The notes under the pieces are model-generated. The model was not told the origin of the DNA, searched no databases, and was given only the letters and a program-made list of their open reading frames with translations. Below, piece after piece: positions 34,650 to 46,253 of a stretch of DNA of 64,000 nt. The translations under genes were made by a program, and so were the position numbers. The stretch is from positions 90,786 through 154,785 of the forward strand of contig CAZPCY010000004.1 in NCBI GenBank assembly GCA_964585295.1, in the 5' to 3' direction. How positions within the stretch are numbered: position 1 is the stretch's first letter; every line of letters begins with the position of its first letter. The stretch is from an uncultured Candidatus Poseidoniales archaeon. GTDB taxonomy: Archaea; Thermoplasmatota; Poseidoniia; Poseidoniales; Thalassarchaeaceae.

Positions 34650-37274
34650 ATGCGTCGTCGCGCCCTGATGCTCACCCTTCTTGCTGTGTGCGCTCCAATG
34701 GTGTCCTTAGACGTCACTGGCTCGGCTGGCGGGATGCTGATGATCACCGAAACGGTCACCCTGTCCGGCGATGGTGGAGTCGGAACGGGGGATATAGTGG
34801 TCACATTCGATGTCATAGAGGTTGAGGGTGGGCCTGCGAATGCCACTGTTCGCGCCAGCATAGTGTCAGGAGAGGGCGAGGAATTATCGGTTACCAATCT
34901 CAGCGTCAGCCTCAACGCCAGCGAGATGAGAGGAGTCTCGCTGACTCTGCAATCGGTTCCCCCTGGCCTGCACCAATTGCGCATGGTTCTAACCGGAGAG
35001 GTCGCGATACCTACCGCTGTGGGCTCTGACAACGGAACCGATCTGCATGAGCTGTTCATCAGACGCCATTTGCCACTCTCGCTGTCGCTCGCCGCACCTT
35101 TCACGATCGTCCCGCTTGATGGTCAAACCGGATTGCCGAGTGGTAATACAACCCTGCGCGATGGGGATTCAGCGAACATCTCCGTCGCCGTGACCAATGA
35201 GGGCGAGGTTGCTTGGAACGGCTCATGGGTCTTCGAGATAGATGATGGAGAGGGTGGCTGGATCCAAGTATCTTCAGGGGATGTCTCAATCTCCTGGGAT
35301 GATGATGGCCTCATCCAGGGGGCCTTGGGACCCCTGTCAGAGGGAGTCCTTCAGGTGCGGGCTAGGTTAATCGGCTTGGCAGATGCCGACCCTTCGGACA
35401 ACAGCGCCATCGATAACCTCACCACCGGCCCTCCTGCCGGCCCGAGGCCGCATATCTCTCTAATCGGGGATGTTGCGAATGCATCAGTCGGTGATCAGGT
35501 CGTCATCACGGCGATGGTGACCAACGATGGTGATCTCTCACATTTCGGCAATTGGTCATGTGGATGGGTCGATGGAACTCCTATCACGAATGGGAGCGGG
35601 TCGCTCTCCGTTGATGTTGGATCAGCGACTAACCTCACGATAATCGTCGAGGCAAGACCAGGTACGCTGAGATGTACCTTAGAATCTGCGAGAAGCCATG
35701 CGGATGCCACCTTAGAAGGGGAGATCGTATTCGACCTCGCCGCTGCTTCCTTCACCATCGCTGGCAGCGCCGGAATAGCCCTCACCGGATCTCCCGCGCA
35801 TGTAGGGGATACTCTGGAAGCGAGCGTTCTGGTGCACAATTCAGGGGAAGCGAGCGGATCCGCGTTCCTAGTGTTGACTCGGGGGGCAGATGGCGTCGCG
35901 ATTTCGACGGGGGCTCCCGTGACCATTGACCCTGGATCAAGTCGGGAGGTTACCACCATGATGACTCTGACCGAAAACGGCTCCCAGTCGATCGATTGGC
36001 GAATCGGTAGCCAAGACGGTTTCAGAGATGGGACTCTCAATGGAACCTCGTCCTTCGACGCCCAGGAATCGCAGTCACTCGATGTCTCGATTGCACCTGG
36101 ATCGTGGACCCTAGACACCGGCCTTTCGGCTACTGTGACCACCACACTCTCCGAGGGTCGCGATCGATTGGTCACCATCGAGACAGGTCACCTGGCCGGA
36201 GGTTCCCGAACCGCTGGCCTCACCTTCGCCGTGCTTCTCTCACCGGGCTCACGCACCTTCGAACTCGATCTTGACCACCCGGCTTCCTCATCGCTGTACG
36301 TGGAGGCGGAACCGGTTGGATGGACAGCCTCTGCCAATGCATATCATGAGGCTGCAGCGGTGATGCCGACGATTGCACCGTCGGTCGAATCACTGTCTTG
36401 GAGCACTCCTACACCCAATGGTCGCGTCACTCTGACCTTCGATCTAGTGAACGGCGGAAATAGCGATACCCTAGCTGGAGAAGTCGTCGTCGTCGACGCA
36501 GGGGATGGAGCGATACTTGCTGAGGTCGCCGTCGAACCTGTCGGTTCAAGAGCAGAGGAGATGTCAATCGTCGTCGATCCATGGCCGACCGGTTCCACCG
36601 TCGATCTACGCATCGAGTGGAGGTGCGGCGACGGTCGGGCGGAACTAGTCGAGACGATCAGCAATGCAATCATCGAGGAATCTCTCTCCGCGACATTGCC
36701 GGTCGAGGCTCTCGCGGTCGGCATCATCGGAGGTCTAGCATTAGGATTAGCAGCCAGACTCCTCCTTCGTCGCGATGAACAACCGAAGGGCAGGGAGGGG
36801 GAATCGTTGGGCCGAAGTAGAAGTTCGGGTCGTTCCCTTACGGCCGACGAGGACGACAAGCGAGAGGTGACTTGTCCTTCGTGCTCACAGGCTCTCAGGG
36901 TTCCATCGGCATACGCCGGCAGGGCTAGGTGTCCAGCGTGCAGCACTGAGTTCTCGGCAGCTAGAATGGATGATTCGGAGGGGGGTCAATCAGTCGAGAA
37001 GGTGGATGAGGAATTCGAAGGTTCGGAAACCACCCAGCCCTTCTCATCCCCGGAAGAGGAATCCGAACCTCCGGAGGCAAGTGAGTCCGATGCGAGCCGA
37101 TTGAATGCTTCTCAAGCTGACTCATCAGATGCGGAAGAATCGGTCGCCAGATCGAAGGACGATCTCCTATCCTGTCCGGAGTGTAGTCAGAGACTACGCA
37201 TCACGATTGACAAGAGGCCGACCAGAGCGAGATGTCCTGCCTGTCGGGCGGAATTCAGGGCAGAGGTGGGATGA
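34650..37274 (+). CDS. Large cell-surface protein with CARDB-like repeats, a C-terminal TM helix and a cytoplasmic tail carrying two MJ0042-type zinc ribbons
   Basis: Signal-like start MRRRALMLTLLAVCAPMVS at 34650. Repeated V-x-N-x-G modules (VAVTNEGEVAW, AMVTNDGDLSH, VLVHNSGEASG, FDLVNGGNSDT). TM helix ALAVGIIGGLALGLAARLLL. Zinc ribbons CPSCSQALRVP...RCPACSTEF and CPECSQRLRIT...RCPACRAEF. Confidence 0.65.
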   Translation: MRRRALMLTLLAVCAPMVSLDVTGSAGGMLMITETVTLSGDGGVGTGDIVVTFDVIEVEGGPANATVRASIVSGEGEELSVTNLSVSLNASEMRGVSLTLQSVPPGLHQLRMVLTGEVAIPTAVGSDNGTDLHELFIRRHLPLSLSLAAPFTIVPLDGQTGLPSGNTTLRDGDSANISVAVTNEGEVAWNGSWVFEIDDGEGGWIQVSSGDVSISWDDDGLIQGALGPLSEGVLQVRARLIGLADADPSDNSAIDNLTTGPPAGPRPHISLIGDVANASVGDQVVITAMVTNDGDLSHFGNWSCGWVDGTPITNGSGSLSVDVGSATNLTIIVEARPGTLRCTLESARSHADATLEGEIVFDLAAASFTIAGSAGIALTGSPAHVGDTLEASVLVHNSGEASGSAFLVLTRGADGVAISTGAPVTIDPGSSREVTTMMTLTENGSQSIDWRIGSQDGFRDGTLNGTSSFDAQESQSLDVSIAPGSWTLDTGLSATVTTTLSEGRDRLVTIETGHLAGGSRTAGLTFAVLLSPGSRTFELDLDHPASSSLYVEAEPVGWTASANAYHEAAAVMPTIAPSVESLSWSTPTPNGRVTLTFDLVNGGNSDTLAGEVVVVDAGDGAILAEVAVEPVGSRAEEMSIVVDPWPTGSTVDLRIEWRCGDGRAELVETISNAIIEESLSATLPVEALAVGIIGGLALGLAARLLLRRDEQPKGREGESLGRSRSSGRSLTADEDDKREVTCPSCSQALRVPSAYAGRARCPACSTEFSAARMDDSEGGQSVEKVDEEFEGSETTQPFSSPEEESEPPEASESDASRLNASQADSSDAEESVARSKDDLLSCPECSQRLRITIDKRPTRARCPACRAEFRAEVG

Positions 37275-37924
37275 TGAGCGGGTCCAACGAATATGTGGAG
37301 ATGTACCTCAAGCGCCTGTATGAATTACATCTGTCTGCTCCTGATCAACCCGTCCGAACCGGACAGATTGCCGCGGTCATGGAAGTCAGCGACCAATCTG
37401 CCTCAGAGATGCTCGCTCGACTCGGGGATCGAGGATTGGTCGATCGGGTGCCGTACAAGGGGGCCACCCTGAACGATGAGGGCCTTCGAATCGCGGCCGG
37501 GGTAAAACGGCGCGAATTGCTGCTCGAGGTTTTCCTCGATAGGATGCTCGGCTACGACGGCGACCTGAATGAGGCAGCATGTCGGCTGGAGCACGCCCTG
37601 AGTCCCGATTTGGAGCGACTAATCGATCGGTTGCTGGGATACCCCGAGAGGGGTATGGACGGCATCTGTATCCCCTCTGAGGGCAGGGCCATCGAACCCT
37701 TCCCTCCTGAAGTCCTAATTCCATTGCGGGCGCTACCTGATGGCGCCTCGGGAGTGATCTCTATCATCCTCTTTGATGGGGCGGTCAACCGGACGTTGGA
37801 ATCGAGCGGCATCGAGATAGATGCCAGAATCCAACGGGATGGCCCATCCTTCGCGCTCGGAGAGTCGTCATTGATTCTCTCCAACGATGTAGCTGATCGG
37901 ATCCTCGTCCGACTTGCGCCCTGA
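37271..37924 (+). CDS. DtxR/MntR-family metal-dependent transcriptional repressor with FeoA-like C-terminal domain
   Basis: ATGA overlap with the surface-protein stop. VEMYLKRLYEL ... VRTGQIAAVMEVSDQSASEMLARLGDRGLVDRVPYKGATLNDEG. Confidence 0.8.
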   Translation: MMSGSNEYVEMYLKRLYELHLSAPDQPVRTGQIAAVMEVSDQSASEMLARLGDRGLVDRVPYKGATLNDEGLRIAAGVKRRELLLEVFLDRMLGYDGDLNEAACRLEHALSPDLERLIDRLLGYPERGMDGICIPSEGRAIEPFPPEVLIPLRALPDGASGVISIILFDGAVNRTLESSGIEIDARIQRDGPSFALGESSLILSNDVADRILVRLAP

Positions 37925-37978
37925 AGGAGTCTTGATTCTGACGCTTAGAAATAAGTTCGGAATAGAGGCATAATGTCC

Positions 37979-37986
37979 TTTTTATC
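37979..37986 (+). promoter_or_regulatory. Candidate TATA box (TTTTTATC), with a GGTGA Shine-Dalgarno-like element at 38016-38020, for the DNase I-like gene
   Basis: AT-rich island in a GC-rich background. The TATA-like element lies about 40 nt upstream of ATG 38025, and GGTGA lies 5-9 nt upstream of it. Confidence 0.35.
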
Positions 37987-38024
37987 ACGAATCATTGAAA
38001 CTCGTTTGATGCCCGGGTGAATAT

Positions 38025-38960
38025 ATGGCCATAGATTTACGAGGAATCACGGCGATCTCCATCTGCCTCAATCTCGTGCTCGCAGGTTTGCTCCTGCATT
38101 CCATCCTTGAAGAGGAGGATGAACCAGTGATTGTCTTCTTCGATCGTTCGGATGAAGATCTCCAGCCGTTCGATCGAGATAAGACCATGAGGCTGGCCAC
38201 ATTCAACATCCGAACTTTCGGGGTCACGAAGATGGGGAAATCAGCCGTCGTTTCAGAGTTGGTCACAATCTTCGATCGATTCGATGTTGTCACCGTTCAA
38301 GAGATTAAGGATGTCAATCAGGAGGTGCCTTACAGGTTCCTTGACGAACTGAGGAATGGGTCGTCACCTGATTGGGACATGTTGCTCTCACCGCGAAGCG
38401 GCCAGCAGGATGATGATTTGTCCAGTCAGGAGCAGTATGCGGTCTACTTCCGCAGTTCATCGGCAAGGCCGGAATCTGAACCGTTCCTGCACAATGACAG
38501 TGCTCGGGATGAGTTCCAATATGAGCCGTTCGTGACCACTATCACCGCTCTCGGACCCACTGGGGAGGATACAAATCTGACCTTCACGATGATTTCAATT
38601 CACACCTCTCCGGGTTCAGCACCTCAAGAGCTTCGATCCTTGTCGAATCTCTCGGGAGTCCATTCAGATGTCGAGAATTTGATCTTCATCGGTGACATGA
38701 ACGCTGATTGCGACTATGTGTCATTGAACGAACTCGACGAATTGGAAATCCGAGGTGAGGACTACACATGGGTCGTCCCCGACAACGCTGACACCACGGT
38801 ATCCTCCACGAGGTGCGCGTACGATAGAATCGTCCTAAACGCTGGCATGGATCGATACTACACAGGTTGGTGGGGCATCGATCGTGACATGAGTGGACCG
38901 GATGTTTCCGACCATTATCCTGTTTGGGTGGAGTTCCACTTGCCAAACGGTTCCGATTGA
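38025..38960 (+). CDS. DNase I-family endonuclease (EEP fold) with N-terminal membrane anchor/signal
   Basis: Motif-by-motif match to bovine DNase I as I recall it: ATFNIRTFGVTKMGK vs AAFNIRTFGETKMSN; VTVQEIKD vs VLIQEVRD; GDMNADCDYV vs GDFNADCSYV; WVVPDNADTTVSSTRCAYDRIVL vs WLIPDSADTTATSTNCAYDRIVV; SDHYPVWVEF vs SDHYPVEVTL. Confidence 0.85.
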   Translation: MAIDLRGITAISICLNLVLAGLLLHSILEEEDEPVIVFFDRSDEDLQPFDRDKTMRLATFNIRTFGVTKMGKSAVVSELVTIFDRFDVVTVQEIKDVNQEVPYRFLDELRNGSSPDWDMLLSPRSGQQDDDLSSQEQYAVYFRSSSARPESEPFLHNDSARDEFQYEPFVTTITALGPTGEDTNLTFTMISIHTSPGSAPQELRSLSNLSGVHSDVENLIFIGDMNADCDYVSLNELDELEIRGEDYTWVVPDNADTTVSSTRCAYDRIVLNAGMDRYYTGWWGIDRDMSGPDVSDHYPVWVEFHLPNGSD

Positions 38961-39033
38961 TGGTACTGGTATTGGGATTCTAATCCTCGGCCACCACGAA
39001 TCTTCTTCATCCGATGCCCCGCGATGGCCCACC

Positions 39034-40686
39034 ATGAGTGGCGTCGAGGAGGCAGATGAAGCCTCAGCCGACGAATCCGAGGTCCCATCTGATTTGGGTG
39101 AGGCCGAGGATGCGGGAGATGCTGACTCCGACATCATGCCAGATCTAGACGAGGCGATGGCCCTCTTGGGAGCCGATCCCTCAGACGCCGAAGAAGCGAT
39201 GGCGGAGCCGATTGAGAACTCGGACCGCAGATTGATGCTCCGAGATCGGGAGGAGAATCTGATTGATCTGGATGAGAAGCTGATCTCAAGTGGGTTGCGG
39301 CTGATCCACGCGCTGCCGATTATCGCCCTTGTTCTGCTCGGCGTCGGCCGAACCTTCGGAGACCAATCTCCCGGCTGGTGGGATGCTCATGTCAGACCGT
39401 CCTTGGGCGCATCCTTCACCTTCGCAATAGGGGCGCTTGCGATTCTAGTCCTAGTAGCACACCTGTCAGCGCTGACCTTGCTCCTGCGGACCATTTGGCT
39501 TACCCGAGAGGGGATTAGGTTGGAGACCGCGGTCAGAGAGGAAGATGGACAGAGATTCAGGAGCGTGCACGGGCACGCGAGGATGCGCGCCATCGTGGAA
39601 TCAGCATACAGACAGAACCTCGTTATCGCGATGATGGTTGCTGCCGCCGTAGTGTTGCAGGTGCTGGCCCTCCTGCCCAATCTAGGCACTGACTCGTCGA
39701 TGACGATGCTCGCCTTGGGAAGCGCCGCTCTGATGGTCGGCTACGGGTTGCAACTCCTGTCGATGAGAAAGAGATTCAATTCGGCTCATATTTGCGGGAT
39801 GCTGAATGCGTATGAATCTCCGGTTCATCCAGCGCTTCCGGAGCACCCCTTTACTGGCGTGATAGGGAGTCATATGGACCCAATTCTCCGAGCGAGGGTG
39901 AACGAGTTCGTCCATGGACTCTCAGACCACCTGACTGGGGATTTCGACCTCGCAGTAGTCCAGGAGAGGCTCCTGCACGCGCTATCTCTTGGGAGCAGGA
40001 GCAGGTCTTCCGATGAGGATTTGCTCAAGCGAGCGCTCGGAGATCTAATCGATGATGATGGAATGGCGAAGATTAGCAGCGATTCCGAAGTCATCAATAG
40101 ATATGTTTTGTACGACATCCTCGAAAATTCAAGGACGAAGGCGAGACCCTTCTTCCGGCTGTACGACAGGGTTCGACATCGCTCGCATGAAGTGGCTTCT
40201 GGTTCTAGGCCCCCGGGTGGCATTTGGTTCGATGTTGACATGGAGAACCTAGTCACAGGTGAGGCTAACCTGTTCGTTTTCGTCCATAACGGAACTCCAG
40301 AGGAGAAGGACCTAGTCGTCCGTGTTCTAACTCCCGATTTCCGTCCATCGGAGACAACCTACTCGATTCGACTGGTGCCGGGTCAGCACCACGCCATGGT
40401 GGAGGTTGATTCTGAGGAGGTCGATGCCGCCCTAGTCGATCTCTACGCTGAGGCCAGTCTGGTCTGGCAAACTCTCCTTCCAGCCCGCATCGGCGAGGGC
40501 ACAGTGACTGCACGGCTCGAGGATCCCGAGGGTAATCTGGTCACCGGACGCATCATCACGGTAAAATCTCGGTATGATCTGATGGAGCGCGTCAGGACGT
40601 GGGCGTCGATGATTCTGATGGCTAGCGGAGGAATAGCGGTCTTGTCTAGGTTGGTGCCATCGGTTCTCGAATTCCTCACGCTCTGA
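39034..40686 (+). CDS. Membrane protein with acidic N-terminus and beta-rich C-terminal domain, unknown function
   Basis: Start at the internal ATG 39034 (MSGVEEADEA), after the DNase gene. At least four TM helices; the last is at the extreme C-terminus. Confidence 0.5.
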   Translation: MSGVEEADEASADESEVPSDLGEAEDAGDADSDIMPDLDEAMALLGADPSDAEEAMAEPIENSDRRLMLRDREENLIDLDEKLISSGLRLIHALPIIALVLLGVGRTFGDQSPGWWDAHVRPSLGASFTFAIGALAILVLVAHLSALTLLLRTIWLTREGIRLETAVREEDGQRFRSVHGHARMRAIVESAYRQNLVIAMMVAAAVVLQVLALLPNLGTDSSMTMLALGSAALMVGYGLQLLSMRKRFNSAHICGMLNAYESPVHPALPEHPFTGVIGSHMDPILRARVNEFVHGLSDHLTGDFDLAVVQERLLHALSLGSRSRSSDEDLLKRALGDLIDDDGMAKISSDSEVINRYVLYDILENSRTKARPFFRLYDRVRHRSHEVASGSRPPGGIWFDVDMENLVTGEANLFVFVHNGTPEEKDLVVRVLTPDFRPSETTYSIRLVPGQHHAMVEVDSEEVDAALVDLYAEASLVWQTLLPARIGEGTVTARLEDPEGNLVTGRIITVKSRYDLMERVRTWASMILMASGGIAVLSRLVPSVLEFLTL

Positions 40687-44239: not shown

Positions 44240-44360
44240 GCACCCACCCCATCATGACGTGTTCTTCAGCCTGTCCCGCGCTTCCCCCCGAAGGGGGGCG
44301 TTCAAATACGGGTCCCATGTCGGCGGACCTGCTCAGGCGGATGTCCGGGAGAGGGTGCGA

Positions 44361-45383
44361 ATGGCGAGCAAGGGTGCTTCGGCTAGGGCAGCGGCCCGCA
44401 AGCAGCGGGACAAGTGGAAGTCGAAGCGCTGGTACGACATCCGTGCTCCTCGTAACCCTTGGTCATACCGCGTAATCGGCGAGACCTTGGGAGAAGAGGA
44501 TGAGATTGTCGTTGGCCGCATCTTCGAGATGACCCAGCACGAGTTAGACGGCGATTTCAGTCGAATGCATGTCAAACTCCGATTTCGAATCACCGAGACC
44601 CTGAACTCCGACGCACTCACCGAGTTCATCGGACATTCGATGATGAAGGACCACATGCGTCGACAGGTCCGTCGCTACCGAGGAAAGGTGGACGATGTCA
44701 TCGATGTGGTAACCGTCGATGGATACCACATCAGGATTAAGCCGTTGATTATCAGCCAGCGAAGAATCAACACGAGTCGAAAGGCGGCAATGCGGGAAGC
44801 GACGCGAGACGTCATTCTCCAGATGTCGGGAACTAGCACATGGGTGGACCTGCAGCGAGTGATACTGGATGGAACCATGGAACGTTCGATCAACGACGCC
44901 GCCGGCAAGATCCACCCCGTGCGCAATGTGATGATTCGCAAGTCCGAACTATGCCAGAGCGGTGTGGTCGTCGATGACGGCCCGAGCCTCGACGAGATAG
45001 TCGCTGAGGAAGAGCGCGCTCGTGCGGCCGAAGCAGTCGCAGCAGAAGCGTCCTCTCAATCAGATGTCCTCGCAGCCGCCGAGGCGAGCGAGGCGATTAG
45101 TGAGACGGTCGCGGATGACGCCGAAGAGGTATCCGACCCCGAGAAGGATGGCGACCTCCTAGAGGCGGAAGCCGAGATAGCTCCTGAAGATGAGGGGGAG
45201 TCAGAGGCCGATGCACCGGCGGAGGATGATGGGGGAGAGGCGGTCGAGGAATCCGAGATAGAATCCTCTAGCGAAGAGGACCTAGGATCATTGACGGTCG
45301 CCGAGTTGAAGGAGAGGTTGAAGGCTGCTGGGAAGCCAGTCTCCGGAAAGAAGGCCGAACTCATCGCGAGACTGCTTGAGTGA
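44361..45383 (+). CDS. rps3ae: Ribosomal protein eS1 (S3Ae) with acidic C-terminal extension ending in a SAP-like motif
   Basis: KSKRWYDIRAPRNPW ... VGRIFEMTQHEL ... KLRFRI core. The extra tail is Glu/Ala-rich and ends LTVAELKERLKAAGKPVSGKKAELIARLLE. Confidence 0.85.
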   Translation: MASKGASARAAARKQRDKWKSKRWYDIRAPRNPWSYRVIGETLGEEDEIVVGRIFEMTQHELDGDFSRMHVKLRFRITETLNSDALTEFIGHSMMKDHMRRQVRRYRGKVDDVIDVVTVDGYHIRIKPLIISQRRINTSRKAAMREATRDVILQMSGTSTWVDLQRVILDGTMERSINDAAGKIHPVRNVMIRKSELCQSGVVVDDGPSLDEIVAEEERARAAEAVAAEASSQSDVLAAAEASEAISETVADDAEEVSDPEKDGDLLEAEAEIAPEDEGESEADAPAEDDGGEAVEESEIESSSEEDLGSLTVAELKERLKAAGKPVSGKKAELIARLLE

Positions 45384-45425
45384 ACGCGACAGCCTGAAGG
45401 TCGCTCCCCTACCCCGGCCATCCAG

Positions 45426-46253
45426 ATGCGTCGCCTAGGTGTGCTATGTGGAACCGGCATGAGCGATTTGCAAGCCGCCTTCCCAAGCGATTCGGATTTG
45501 TTGGTGACCTCGACCGAATCAGTCCGAGTCGAATCACCTTGGGGCATCGTCCCACTCGATCTCGTGACCATCAAAGAAGGTGATACAGAGGCCAAACTGG
45601 GATTCGTGCAGAGGCACCATTCGCCTGATGGAAAGACCACGCCACCGCACGTCATCGAGCATCGGGCGAACGTGCATGCGATTCTCTCGATGGCCCCTGA
45701 AGCAATCGTCAGCATCAACGCCGTAGGATCGATGCATCCAGATCTGCCACCCGGATCCATCGGCCTCGCGACACAGGTTCTCGATTTGACTGGCAGAGTG
45801 TGGACCTTCAACGATCTCGATGCCATCCATGCTGACATGACATCGCACTTCGACCGGGCCCTGTCGGATGTCTGCCGTGCAGCCATCATCTCATGTGGTC
45901 AAACCAAGGTGGCAGATGCAGTCGTCGCGCAGATGGTCGGCCCACAGTTCGAGAGCAGCGCCGACATCGTGGCACTGAAATCGCTCGGTGCTGATGCCGT
46001 CGGGATGACCTTGGCTGGTGAGGTCCGTCTCCTAGCCGAGGCGAAGCATCACCCTGATCGAGTACCTGTCTGCAAATCCGAGTCACCAGCGGTTCGTCAT
46101 GTGGGCCTCTCGATATCATCGAATTGGGCGGCTGGCGAGGTCGACGCCGACATCGATCACGATTCTGCAGAGGCGACAGCTGCGAATCAGCATGGCAGGA
46201 TATGGAGCGCGCTTCTCGCCATCCTTGACGACCTCAATCATCCCGAAGGTTGA
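45426..46253 (+). CDS. mtnP: Purine nucleoside / 5'-methylthioadenosine phosphorylase family
   Basis: FVQRHHSPDGKTTPPHVIEHRANVHAIL and GPQFESSADIVALKSLGADAVGMTLAGEV. Confidence 0.7.
   Translation: MRRLGVLCGTGMSDLQAAFPSDSDLLVTSTESVRVESPWGIVPLDLVTIKEGDTEAKLGFVQRHHSPDGKTTPPHVIEHRANVHAILSMAPEAIVSINAVGSMHPDLPPGSIGLATQVLDLTGRVWTFNDLDAIHADMTSHFDRALSDVCRAAIISCGQTKVADAVVAQMVGPQFESSADIVALKSLGADAVGMTLAGEVRLLAEAKHHPDRVPVCKSESPAVRHVGLSISSNWAAGEVDADIDHDSAEATAANQHGRIWSALLAILDDLNHPEG

What the first reader, a model, noticed from the sequence alone, without database searches (positions are those of the whole stretch)
38025..38960. Close homolog of animal DNase I, membrane-anchored, in an archaeal context
Seen: almost every catalytic and structural motif of bovine/human DNase I has a counterpart in the same order. 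Examples are FNIRTFG-TKM, QE(I/V)(K/R)D, GD(M/F)NADC-YV, PD-ADTT-S-T-CAYDRIV and SDHYPV. The protein is preceded by a hydrophobic N-terminal helix and has its own AT-rich promoter-like island. Established: DNase I-type (DNaseIc) enzymes are typical of animals and sporadic in prokaryotes. Generic EEP phosphatases do not share these specific motifs. Inference: this may be an extracellular DNA-scavenging nuclease, possibly acquired horizontally, which would be relevant to dissolved-DNA use by a planktonic heterotroph.
Basis: partly seen in the sequence, partly recalled or inferred. Interest (0 to 1): 0.6.

Follow-up and report, generated by a model that had tools for sequence, protein, structure and literature searches.

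The report
Surface-anchored DNase I homolog, marine archaea
An abundant planktonic archaeon (Marine Group II) encodes a true relative of the animal enzyme DNase I, tethered to the outside of its membrane and probably cutting DNA in seawater; the gene is old and shared with marine bacteria, not recently borrowed from animals.

Summary
ORF 38025-38960(+) encodes a 311-aa protein with an N-terminal hydrophobic helix, an acidic linker and a complete DNase I-type domain. By sequence, the only solved structures matched are DNase I and DNase1L3 (E 3e-30). The predicted fold (pLDDT 92.8) matches them first (TM up to 0.88), at least six orders of magnitude in E-value ahead of other EEP enzymes. All catalytic residues, both Ca2+ sites and the essential disulfide are kept.

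The genome is a Ca. Poseidoniales MAG. The gene has orthologues in 66 of 201 sampled genomes of the order, common in one family and rare in the window's own. Those orthologues form one clade inside a large prokaryotic clade whose labelled members are Myxococcota/Polyangiales and Bacteroidales. Animal DNase I forms a separate clade. Third-codon-position GC (GC3) is normal, so there is no sign of recent transfer or contamination.

The most likely function is a surface-tethered Ca2+/Mg2+ endonuclease acting on extracellular DNA. A nutritional role is inferred, and the usual downstream genes were not found. This copy alone has Tyr in place of a near-invariant DNA-contact Arg.

First readers of this scan flagged similar ORFs in two other genomes. 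Verdict: a new member of a known kind, of moderate interest.

The parts
37925..38024 (+). Upstream intergenic region and putative promoter. It holds TTTTTA at 37979-37984 and a motif ATCATTGAAACTCGT at 37991-38005 that sits at the same distance from the ATG in orthologous loci of genus g11.
   Evidence: 39% GC against 57% for the window. An ungapped alignment with L003/L004/L012 shows conserved AAT..TT.AAA columns. The motif has 2 hits in the window against 0.33 expected. Promoter function was not tested.
38025..38960 (+). Gene for the 311-aa membrane-anchored DNase I-family nuclease (P0001), stop codon included.
38037..38108 (+). Residues 5-28: a single hydrophobic helix, most likely an uncleaved signal-anchor (N-in, C-out).
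   Evidence: Kyte-Doolittle 2.19. AF2 models a helix over residues 5-28. 117 of 118 Poseidoniales orthologues have such a segment. There is no lipobox and Cys14 is not conserved. No dedicated signal-peptide predictor was available.
38109..38183 (+). Residues 29-53: an acidic, low-confidence linker or stalk.
   Evidence: pLDDT is 57-69 over residues 31-50. Linkers in orthologues have a median length of 35 aa, with 34% D/E and 8% K/R.
38184..38939 (+). Residues 54-305: the DNase I catalytic domain (EEP fold).
   Evidence: pLDDT is 94-98. The top 10 Foldseek hits are all DNase I/DNase1L3, E 1e-26 to 6e-23. Catalytic residues, Ca2+-site residues and the Cys229-Cys264 pair are conserved.

Best explanation
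The gene encodes a type II (N-in, C-out) membrane-anchored ecto-enzyme of the DNase I family. A single N-terminal helix holds it in the cell membrane. An acidic stalk of about 25 residues presents a DNase I domain on the cell surface.

By homology, the domain should be a Ca2+-stabilised, Mg2+/Mn2+-dependent endonuclease. It should nick and cut double-stranded DNA through the His-Asp/Glu general acid-base mechanism of DNase I and leave 5'-phosphorylated oligonucleotides. Its substrate is DNA outside the cell, either dissolved or bound to particles.

The most likely benefit is access to the phosphorus, nitrogen or nucleotides in that DNA. Clearing or loosening eDNA on particles is an alternative.

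The gene is a long-standing component of Ca. Poseidoniales. It is common in one family and retained or regained in two genera of the window's family. It belongs to a prokaryotic branch of the DNase I family shared with marine Myxococcota and Bacteroidota.

Shown: family membership, residue conservation, architecture and phyletic pattern. Inferred: topology, activity and physiological role.
For: Family: the only PDB sequence hits are DNase I/DNase1L3. In the fold search DNase I ranks 1-10 (TM 0.80-0.88), and the next EEP fold, EEPD1, is at E 9e-17.

Active site: N61, E93, E136, H193, D224, N226, D267, D296 and H297 align to bovine N7, E39, E78, H134, D168, N170, D212, D251 and H252. They are invariant or 117/118 in Poseidoniales orthologues.

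Ca2+ sites: D256/T258/S260/T262 and D158/D162/F164/E167 match bovine D201/T203/T205/T207 and D99/D107/F109/E112.

Extracellular cues: exactly two domain Cys, equivalent to the essential C173-C209 disulfide, in 117/118 orthologues. There are 5 N-x-S/T sequons here and a median of 8 in orthologues. The stalk after the helix is acidic.

Anchor: conserved in 117/118.

Relatives fused to HhH DNA-binding or S1/P1 nuclease domains support a role on nucleic acids.

Antiquity: 66/201 genomes of the order carry the gene; genus-level congruence and conserved synteny are seen within family f3; GC3 is normal.

Precedent: a surface-bound nuclease (Hvo_1477, SNase fold) is needed for growth of Haloferax volcanii on eDNA (PMC3929857). 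Extracellular nucleases mark DNA-degrading marine taxa (PMC8289736).

Possible downstream parts in this genome: one Phosphodiest/NPP-family ORF, three Metallophos ORFs and a PHO4 phosphate carrier.
Against: No activity, localisation or expression data exist. No RNA run holding the locus was listed.

The window's protein has Tyr166 where 117/118 orthologues, and at least 90% of the wider family, have Arg. That Arg corresponds to bovine R111, a DNA-phosphate contact, so this particular copy may bind DNA less well.

Bovine Y76 (minor-groove contact) is Ser or Gly throughout the clade, and R41 is Lys.

Canonical eDNA-utilisation partners were not found in the genome: 5_nucleotid_C, Bmp, PhoD, Alk_phosphatase, PstS-type PBP_like_2 and Xan_ur_permease.

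Neighbouring genes differ between lineages and give no consistent functional link.

Topology rests on hydropathy and charge distribution only.
Confidence: 0.65

Rival explanations
1. DNA-uptake processing nuclease. The anchored DNase would cut incoming DNA at the surface as part of a competence-like import machine, as EndA does in Streptococcus or NucA in Bacillus, rather than feeding the cell with mononucleotides.
For: The membrane-anchored nuclease architecture resembles EndA/NucA (own knowledge; discussed for Hvo_1477 in PMC3929857). In two g11 genomes the gene lies directly downstream of T2SSE/T2SSF (type IV pilus/archaellum-type ATPase and platform) genes.
Against: That adjacency occurs only in one genus and may simply be the archaellum operon. 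Other lineages have unrelated neighbours. No DNA channel or competence protein was looked for or found. DNase I-type enzymes make double-strand nicks and cuts and are not known as uptake nucleases.
Confidence: 0.1
2. Matrix-clearing or defensive surface nuclease. It would degrade eDNA in marine-snow or biofilm matrices to allow detachment, movement or access to particles, or destroy foreign DNA at the surface, with nutrition secondary.
For: The gene is concentrated in family f3 (60/99 genomes) and rare in f1 (4/99). f3 is probably Ca. Poseidoniaceae, judging from NCBI names on the matching protein clusters. [quoted passage not shown] Bacterial surface and extracellular nucleases have such dual roles (discussion in PMC3929857).
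Against: There is no direct evidence. The same data fit nutrition equally well, and the roles are not mutually exclusive.
Confidence: 0.15
3. This particular copy is a weakened or functionally shifted enzyme because of the R-to-Y change at the R111-equivalent position, even though the clade as a whole consists of active DNases.
For: Y166 is unique among 118 orthologues. The query also deviates at three other near-invariant columns (Y86F, Y142F, F173I), the second-highest count in the set. The query's terminal branch is long, 0.31-0.40.
Against: The reading frame is intact. All catalytic and metal-site residues are kept. Three of the four deviations are conservative. GC3 is normal, and an identical protein is on record from two contigs.
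Confidence: 0.15
4. It is a generic EEP phosphoesterase (phosphatase, sphingomyelinase or AP endonuclease) rather than a DNase I-type nuclease, or it is a eukaryotic contaminant or a recent transfer from an animal.
For: Pfam recognises only the broad Exo_endo_phos family (E 1.4e-7). Public annotations read 'hypothetical' or 'EEP family', and one reads 'exonuclease III'. It is the only Exo_endo_phos hit in the genome.
Against: No non-DNase I structure is matched by sequence at E<=0.001. DNase I-specific Ca2+ sites and the disulfide are conserved. The membrane anchor is incompatible with a repair enzyme. The gene lies on a long archaeal contig with orthologues across the order. It sits in a clade with 100/100 support that is separate from the animal clade, and GC3 is normal.
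Confidence: 0.03

Closest known systems
Vertebrate DNase I and DNase1L3 (bovine 1DNK/2DNJ, human 4AWN, human DNase1L3 7KIU)
   Same: Same fold (TM 0.80-0.88). It has the same nine catalytic and metal-ligand residues, both structural Ca2+ sites and the essential C173-C209 disulfide. It also keeps Y175, Y211 and R9.
   Different: Identity is only 26-29% over the structural alignment. It has an N-terminal membrane anchor and acidic stalk instead of a cleaved signal peptide. The C101-C104 disulfide loop is absent. There is a 4-residue insertion before the E78 equivalent. Y76 is Ser/Gly, R41 is Lys and R111 is Tyr (the last in this copy only). The actin-contact A114 is Phe/Tyr, so actin binding is not expected (last point from own knowledge of actin-resistant DNase I variants). 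It falls in a different clade of the family tree.
Prokaryotic DNase I-like proteins of marine Myxococcota/Polyangiales, 'Deltaproteobacteria' and Bacteroidales MAGs (for example clusters P0127, P0315, P0334, P0361)
   Same: These are the closest non-archaeal relatives, at 40-46% identity. They share a clade with 100/100 support, have a single domain of similar length and share conserved motifs.
   Different: They are bacterial, uncharacterised and annotated only as EEP-family proteins. Some carry HhH or S1/P1 nuclease fusions that are absent here. N-terminal targeting signals were not compared.
Mycoplasma membrane nuclease MnuA (NCBIfam NF045851)
   Same: A membrane-associated nuclease of the DNase I/EEP lineage used for nucleotide salvage. 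It is the only NCBIfam model hit (background in PMC11729948 abstract).
   Different: The score is 29 bits against a cut-off of 185, and only the first half aligns. MnuA is a lipoprotein (PMC11729948 abstract), whereas this protein has no lipobox. It is not a member.
Haloferax volcanii Hvo_1477
   Same: An archaeal, surface-attached nuclease. Its deletion impairs growth on extracellular DNA as a phosphorus source (PMC3929857). It is the best experimental precedent for the proposed role.
   Different: It has an unrelated fold (staphylococcal thermonuclease, SNase), is a lipobox lipoprotein and shows no sequence relationship.
EEP-type extracellular nucleases of bacteria used on eDNA (Shewanella ExeM, Vibrio Xds)
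   Same: Secreted or surface nucleases with an EEP domain, implicated in eDNA use and biofilm control (mentioned in PMC3929857; PMC6746945 abstract; their EEP domain content is from own knowledge).
   Different: They were not matched here by sequence. They are multi-domain proteins from other EEP subfamilies and lack the DNase I-specific Ca2+ sites and disulfide (not tested here).

Membership tests
DNase I family (SMART DNaseIc / CDD DNase1-type EEP subfamily) | EEP four-layer alpha/beta sandwich fold, closest to DNase I among EEP structures | tested here: met
   AF2 pLDDT is 92.8. Foldseek ranks 1-10 are all DNase I/DNase1L3, E 1e-26 to 6e-23, TMt 0.80-0.88. The next EEP fold is at E 9e-17.
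DNase I family (SMART DNaseIc / CDD DNase1-type EEP subfamily) | Sequence similarity specific to DNase I rather than to other EEP subfamilies | tested here: met
   phmmer against PDB gives five distinct sequences at E<=0.001, all DNase I or DNase1L3. In the family tree it groups with proteins that NCBI/JGI name deoxyribonuclease-1-like. The SMART and CDD models themselves were not available.
DNase I family (SMART DNaseIc / CDD DNase1-type EEP subfamily) | Catalytic and metal-ligand residues N7, E39, E78, H134, D168, N170, D212, D251, H252 (bovine numbering) | tested here: met
   They map to N61, E93, E136, H193, D224, N226, D267, D296 and H297. They are 117-118 of 118 conserved in orthologues.
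DNase I family (SMART DNaseIc / CDD DNase1-type EEP subfamily) | Two structural Ca2+ sites (D201/T203/T205/T207 and D99/D107/F109/E112) | tested here: met
   They map to D256/T258/S260/T262 and D158/D162/F164/E167. Assignment of these bovine residues to the Ca2+ sites is from own knowledge.
DNase I family (SMART DNaseIc / CDD DNase1-type EEP subfamily) | Essential disulfide C173-C209 | tested here: met
   C229 and C264 align to it and are the only Cys in the domain in 117/118 orthologues. Bond formation itself is not testable here.
DNase I family (SMART DNaseIc / CDD DNase1-type EEP subfamily) | DNA-contact residues R9, R41, Y76, R111, Y175, Y211 | tested here: inconclusive
   R63, Y231 and Y266 are kept. 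R41 is K95 (conservative). Y76 is S134 (Ser/Gly in the whole clade). R111 is Y166 in this protein only and Arg in 117/118 orthologues.
DNase I family (SMART DNaseIc / CDD DNase1-type EEP subfamily) | Ca2+/Mg2+-dependent endonucleolytic cleavage of dsDNA | not testable with these tools
   This needs a biochemical assay of the expressed ectodomain.
MnuA family membrane nuclease (NCBIfam NF045851) | Score above the curated cut-off (185 bits) over the full model | tested here: not met
   29 bits, E 1e-6, with only model positions 2-132 of 317 aligned.
Pfam Exo_endo_phos (PF03372) | Score above the gathering threshold | tested here: met
   31.9 bits against a cut-off of 24.5, covering the full model 1-225. 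It is the only such hit in the genome.

The most novel reading that the evidence does not exclude
Surface-tethered DNase I is a lineage-defining trait. It would let one family of Marine Group II archaea (family f3, probably Ca. Poseidoniaceae) and a few genera of the other family harvest dissolved or particle-bound DNA. In that case these very abundant archaea would be unrecognised consumers of the oceanic eDNA pool. The trait would have come from an ancient exchange with marine Myxococcota- or Bacteroidota-like bacteria, within a DNase I family that is far more prokaryotic than textbooks imply.
Probability: 0.4. Interest if true: 0.55.

Novelty: new member of a known kind. Interest (0 to 1): 0.4.

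Why it matters
Marine Group II archaea are among the most abundant heterotrophs of the surface ocean and remain uncultured. Their substrates are inferred from genomes, and published accounts stress proteins, peptides, lipids and carbohydrates. The three main comparative and transcriptomic papers held in the library contain no word beginning 'nuclease' or 'DNase' in their main text.

A conserved, outward-facing DNase I-type enzyme would add dissolved DNA to that list. Dissolved DNA is a major pool of organic phosphorus and nitrogen. The enzyme would also separate the two families ecologically (60/99 against 4/99 genomes).

For enzymology, the finding adds an archaeal, membrane-anchored, highly acidic branch to a family known mainly from animals. 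It also shows that the family has thousands of prokaryotic members.

The claim is modest. The protein is a recognisable member of a known family, and its role is untested.

Tried and rejected
- **Genomic context of the nearest metagenomic relatives:** Cluster look-ups gave them no organism names. Labels came instead from a profile search.
- **Expression:** no RNA holder was listed for the locus.
- **Operon logic:** the upstream DtxR/MntR-type regulator (37232-37924) and the downstream 597-aa ORF are not neighbours of the gene in any other locus examined. An operon or metal-regulation link was dropped.
- **Nucleoside phosphorylase link:** a PNP_UDP_1 gene is adjacent in L012 but 6.5 kb away in the window, at 45426-46253. 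This is too loose to count.
- **Canonical eDNA pathway:** 5_nucleotid_C, Bmp, PhoD, Alk_phosphatase, PBP_like_2 and Xan_ur_permease were not found in the genome.
- **Viral carriage:** only three viral contigs hold distant relatives, at 28-30% identity. This gives no support for a Poseidoniales virus as a vector.
- **Recent HGT by composition:** rejected. The low GC (0.513, z -2.5) comes from codon positions 1 and 2, and GC3 is ordinary.
- **Lipoprotein anchoring:** rejected. There is no lipobox and Cys14 is not conserved.
- **Promoter scan:** the sigma-70 promoter/terminator scan was not run because it does not apply to archaea.
- **Origin of the window's sub-clade:** whether it was inherited vertically or came from family f3 stays unresolved. 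The node is a polytomy with 84/74 support, and no AU test was run.
Full report
**1. What is there.** The window holds an uninterrupted ORF at 38025-38960 on the + strand, 311 aa.
- **N-terminus:** a short N-terminus (MAIDLR) is followed by a hydrophobic stretch of about 22 residues. The best 19-residue Kyte-Doolittle mean is 2.19 at residues 10-28.
- **Linker:** next comes a strongly acidic linker (EEEDEP...DRSDEDLQPFDRD).
- **Domain:** from about residue 54 there is a globular domain.
- **Overall properties:** the protein is very acidic (56 D+E against 22 K+R, pI 4.2). It has three Cys (14, 229, 264) and five N-x-S/T sequons.

**2. Family assignment.**
- **Library models:** Pfam sees only the broad Exo_endo_phos family (E 1.4e-7). 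NCBIfam gives a sub-threshold hit to the Mycoplasma membrane nuclease MnuA (29 bits against a cut-off of 185).
- **Solved structures by sequence:** a search of all PDB chains is specific. The five sequences matched at E<=0.001 are bovine and human DNase I and human DNase1L3 (3.3e-30 to 2.2e-26).
- **Fold:** an AlphaFold2 model built on a 56-sequence alignment is confident (pLDDT 92.8, with 94-98 across the domain). It has a helix at residues 5-28 and a low-confidence linker. Foldseek against the PDB ranks DNase I/DNase1L3 structures 1-10 (E 1e-26 to 6e-23, TM 0.80-0.88). The next EEP fold, EEPD1, is at 9e-17, and CNOT6L, TDP2, nocturnin and LINE-1 endonuclease are at 1e-11 to 1e-13.

**3. Residue mapping.** The HMMER alignment to chain 1dnk_A carries the mature bovine numbering and gives the following.
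- **Catalytic and metal ligands:** N7, E39, E78, H134, D168, N170, D212, D251, H252 -> N61, E93, E136, H193, D224, N226, D267, D296, H297.
- **Ca2+ site I:** D201/T203/T205/T207 -> D256/T258/S260/T262.
- **Ca2+ site II:** D99/D107/F109/E112 -> D158/D162/F164/E167.
- **Essential disulfide:** C173-C209 -> C229-C264.
- **Missing loop:** the C101-C104 loop is absent.
- **DNA contacts:** R9, Y175 and Y211 are kept (R63, Y231, Y266). R41 is Lys95, Y76 is Ser134 and R111 is Tyr166.
- **Actin contact:** A114 is Phe169.

The assignment of these bovine residues to function is established knowledge of DNase I, recalled rather than tested here.

In an alignment of 118 Poseidoniales orthologues of at least 290 aa, the catalytic, Ca2+ and Cys positions are 117-118/118 conserved. 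Position 166 is Arg in 117, and Tyr only in the window's protein. The window's protein also deviates conservatively at three other near-invariant columns (Y86F, Y142F, F173I).

**4. Architecture is conserved.** Of the 118 orthologues, 117 have an N-terminal hydrophobic segment (median KD 2.37). It is followed by a linker with a median length of 35 aa, 34% D/E and 8% K/R. Exactly two Cys in the domain occur in 117/118, and the median number of sequons is 8.
- There is no lipobox, and Cys14 is not conserved.
- The long hydrophobic core, the lack of an obvious cleavage motif and the negative charge after the helix favour an uncleaved signal-anchor with the domain outside.
- The disulfide, Ca2+ sites and sequons fit an extracytoplasmic domain.
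- This topology is an inference, because no dedicated predictor was available.

**5. Organism and distribution.** The window is part of a 2.06-Mb, 40-contig assembly that is 96.7% complete and carries a single copy of the gene. The closest proteins carry names such as Candidatus Poseidoniales, Poseidoniaceae or Euryarchaeota archaeon.
- **Within the order:** among 201 sampled genomes, 66 have a match. In the window's own family f1, 4 of 99 have one, all in genera g1 and g11. In family f3, 60 of 99 have one (g15 32/34, g18 11/11).
- **Across the phylum:** only a few genomes of two other families have distant relatives at 28-36% identity.
- **Synteny:** within f3 the flanking genes are conserved across genera g15 and g18 (TPR protein, unknown protein, asparaginase II, aldehyde dehydrogenase). 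The f1 loci have different contexts.
- **Immediate neighbours:** the upstream DtxR/MntR-type gene and the downstream 597-aa ORF of the window are not neighbours of the gene anywhere else. The gene therefore looks like a stand-alone unit.

**6. Wider family and phylogeny.** An exhaustive HMMER search of 1.84 billion cluster representatives finds 2,060 clusters at E<=1e-3 and 97 at E<=1e-30.

Some high whole-protein scores belong to tandem two- or three-domain proteins of marine animals and a protist transcriptome (Owenia, Styela, an EukProt entry). Their individual domains score about as well as bovine DNase I.

A careful IQ-TREE analysis (92 domains, LG+C20+F+G4 PMSF) gives:
- **(a) Poseidoniales:** one clade (100/95).
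- **(b) Its position:** it is nested in a 44-row clade (100/100, stem 0.51). That clade holds a Myxococcota/'Deltaproteobacteria' MAG cluster (P0127/L013, 41-43% identity), many unlabelled metagenomic proteins, and a second divergent paralogue present in a few g15 genomes.
- **(c) Eukaryotes:** all labelled animal proteins (Haliotis, Diadema, Glandiceps, Penaeus, Owenia, Styela) and the protist fall in a separate clade (100/97). That clade also holds an Oligoflexaceae protein, another 'Deltaproteobacteria' MAG cluster and a viral-contig protein.
- **(d) Other Thermoplasmatota:** their homologues form a third, distant clade (100/97).

A profile built only from non-archaeal members of the 44-row clade retrieves proteins named from Polyangiaceae, Polyangiales and Bacteroidales MAGs. 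Some are fused to HhH motifs or to an S1/P1 nuclease domain.

The tree is unrooted, so the direction of transfer cannot be read. It does exclude a specific animal origin of the archaeal gene.

**7. Within the order.** A second tree of 43 rows shows genus-level coherence in f3. The window's sub-clade (g1 plus g11) is a long-stemmed lineage (100/100). It sits in an unresolved polytomy with the f3 sub-clades (84/74).
- The other genome of the window's genus (G139, 82% complete, 240 contigs) carries an f3-type copy (96/88). This indicates either transfer within the order or mis-binning.
- Ancestral presence with losses in most f1 genera, and transfer from f3 into f1, both remain possible.

**8. 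Composition.** The gene has the lowest GC of 51 long ORFs in the window (0.513, z -2.5). Its GC3 is 0.601 (z -0.86, rank 13 of 51). The deficit lies in codon positions 1 and 2 and so reflects amino-acid composition. There is no compositional sign of recent acquisition.

The 100-nt upstream spacer is 39% GC and contains TTTTTA at 37979-37984. A 15-nt motif at 37991-38005 lies at the same distance from the ATG in three g11 loci and is rare elsewhere in the window. A promoter or operator role is plausible but untested.

**9. Function.** The most likely mechanism is a surface-tethered, Ca2+-stabilised, Mg2+/Mn2+-dependent endonuclease acting on extracellular DNA.

The physiological role is inferred by analogy. 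Hvo_1477, a surface-bound SNase-fold nuclease, is required for growth of Haloferax volcanii on eDNA (PMC3929857). Extracellular nucleases characterise DNA-degrading marine sediment taxa, where nucleotidases and transporters complete the route (PMC8289736).

In this genome the usual partners were not found with Pfam models: 5'-nucleotidase C-terminal domain, Bmp, PhoD, PhoA, PstS-type binding protein and xanthine/uracil permease. One NPP-type phosphodiesterase domain inside a very long ORF, three Metallophos ORFs and a PHO4 phosphate carrier are present. A complete route can therefore be imagined but is not demonstrated.

Alternatives are a DNA-uptake nuclease, matrix clearing on particles, and a weakened enzyme in this particular genome because of Y166.

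**10. Literature.** Full-text searches found no paper describing a DNase I-type or extracellular nuclease in Marine Group II. The main text of Rinke 2018, Tully 2019 and Damashek 2021 contains no word beginning 'nuclease' or 'DNase'. Public annotations of the orthologues are 'hypothetical protein', 'EEP family protein' or, wrongly, 'exonuclease III'. JGI labels a few bacterial relatives 'deoxyribonuclease-1-like protein'.

First readers of this scan flagged similar membrane-anchored DNase I-like ORFs in two other genomes (e1-3177095, e1-732641). Neither note shows a follow-up.

**11. Verdict.** The protein is a true DNase I-family member with a conserved membrane anchor.

The evolutionary framing needs correcting. 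The protein belongs to a large prokaryotic branch of the family, is old in Poseidoniales and is not specifically animal-like. The ecological reading is reasonable but untested.

Novelty: a new member of a known kind. Interest: moderate.

Noticed in passing
window 37991-38005 (and 37979-37984): A 15-nt motif, ATCATTGAAACTCGT, lies 20-34 nt upstream of the ATG. It aligns without gaps to ...ATGATT(C/G)AAATCGTA... at the same distance in three g11 orthologous loci. There are only 2 hits with at most 1 mismatch in the window, against 0.33 expected. A TTTTTA lies just upstream. It may be a core promoter or an operator.
   Followed up: partly
window 38520-38522 (codon 166, TAT): Tyr166 replaces an Arg that is present in 117 of 118 Poseidoniales orthologues and in at least 90% of the wider family. 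This is the position of bovine DNase I R111, a DNA-phosphate contact. The change is unique to this genome's protein.
   Followed up: partly
G139:C64:6985-7824 (locus L052): The other genome of the window's genus carries a DNase I gene of the family-f3 type (46-55% identity to the window's protein; grouped with f3 genera at 96/88 support) rather than the window's type. This points to transfer within the order or to a mis-binned 8-kb contig.
   Followed up: partly
G048:C17:47734-48612 (L033) and G176:C56:7026-7754 (L034): Some g15 genomes have a divergent paralogue of the DNase I-like gene, at 33-34% identity to the window's protein. G048 carries it in addition to the main copy. In G176 it was the only hit. 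It groups with unlabelled metagenomic proteins (P0192, P0180, P0149) rather than with the main Poseidoniales clade.
   Followed up: partly
proteins P0145, P0136, P0354 (bacterial or metagenomic relatives): DNase I-like domains are fused to helix-hairpin-helix DNA-binding motifs (PF12836, PF00633) or to an S1/P1 nuclease domain (PF02265).
   Followed up: no
proteins P0123, P0126, P0124, P0129, P0134, P0146, P0151: Marine invertebrates (the annelid Owenia and the tunicate Styela) and a protist transcriptome encode proteins with two or three tandem DNase I domains. The two domains of one protein are usually each other's closest relatives.
   Followed up: partly
L015 (Oligoflexaceae MAG), P0245 ('Deltaproteobacteria' MAG cluster), L038 (viral contig): These bacterial and viral-contig proteins fall inside the otherwise animal and protist DNase I clade (100/97). 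This suggests exchange between eukaryotes and predatory or marine bacteria, in an unknown direction.
   Followed up: no
G000 whole genome: No hit was found to PstS-type PBP_like_2, PhoA, PhoD, 5_nucleotid_C, Bmp or Xan_ur_permease in a 96.7%-complete genome. A PHO4 carrier (C3:11871-13118), three Metallophos ORFs and a Phosphodiest/NPP domain are present. The NPP domain lies in an open frame of 1,426 aa at a contig end (C32:225-920). The DNase is the only Exo_endo_phos hit, so no ExoIII-type AP endonuclease was detected.
   Followed up: partly
L022:3568-7107 and L023:3291-6827; L012:3103-3870: In g11 genomes the DNase gene lies directly downstream of T2SSE- and T2SSF-family genes (type IV pilus/archaellum ATPase and platform protein). 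In another g11 locus it lies directly downstream of a PNP_UDP_1 nucleoside phosphorylase that follows the S3Ae gene. The window has the same S3Ae-PNP pair at 44259-46253, 5.3 kb downstream of the DNase.
   Followed up: partly
window 38893-40686: The downstream ORF of up to 597 aa overlaps the DNase stop if the GTG start is used. It has hydrophobic segments and no Pfam or NCBIfam match, and it is not a conserved neighbour of the DNase gene.
   Followed up: partly
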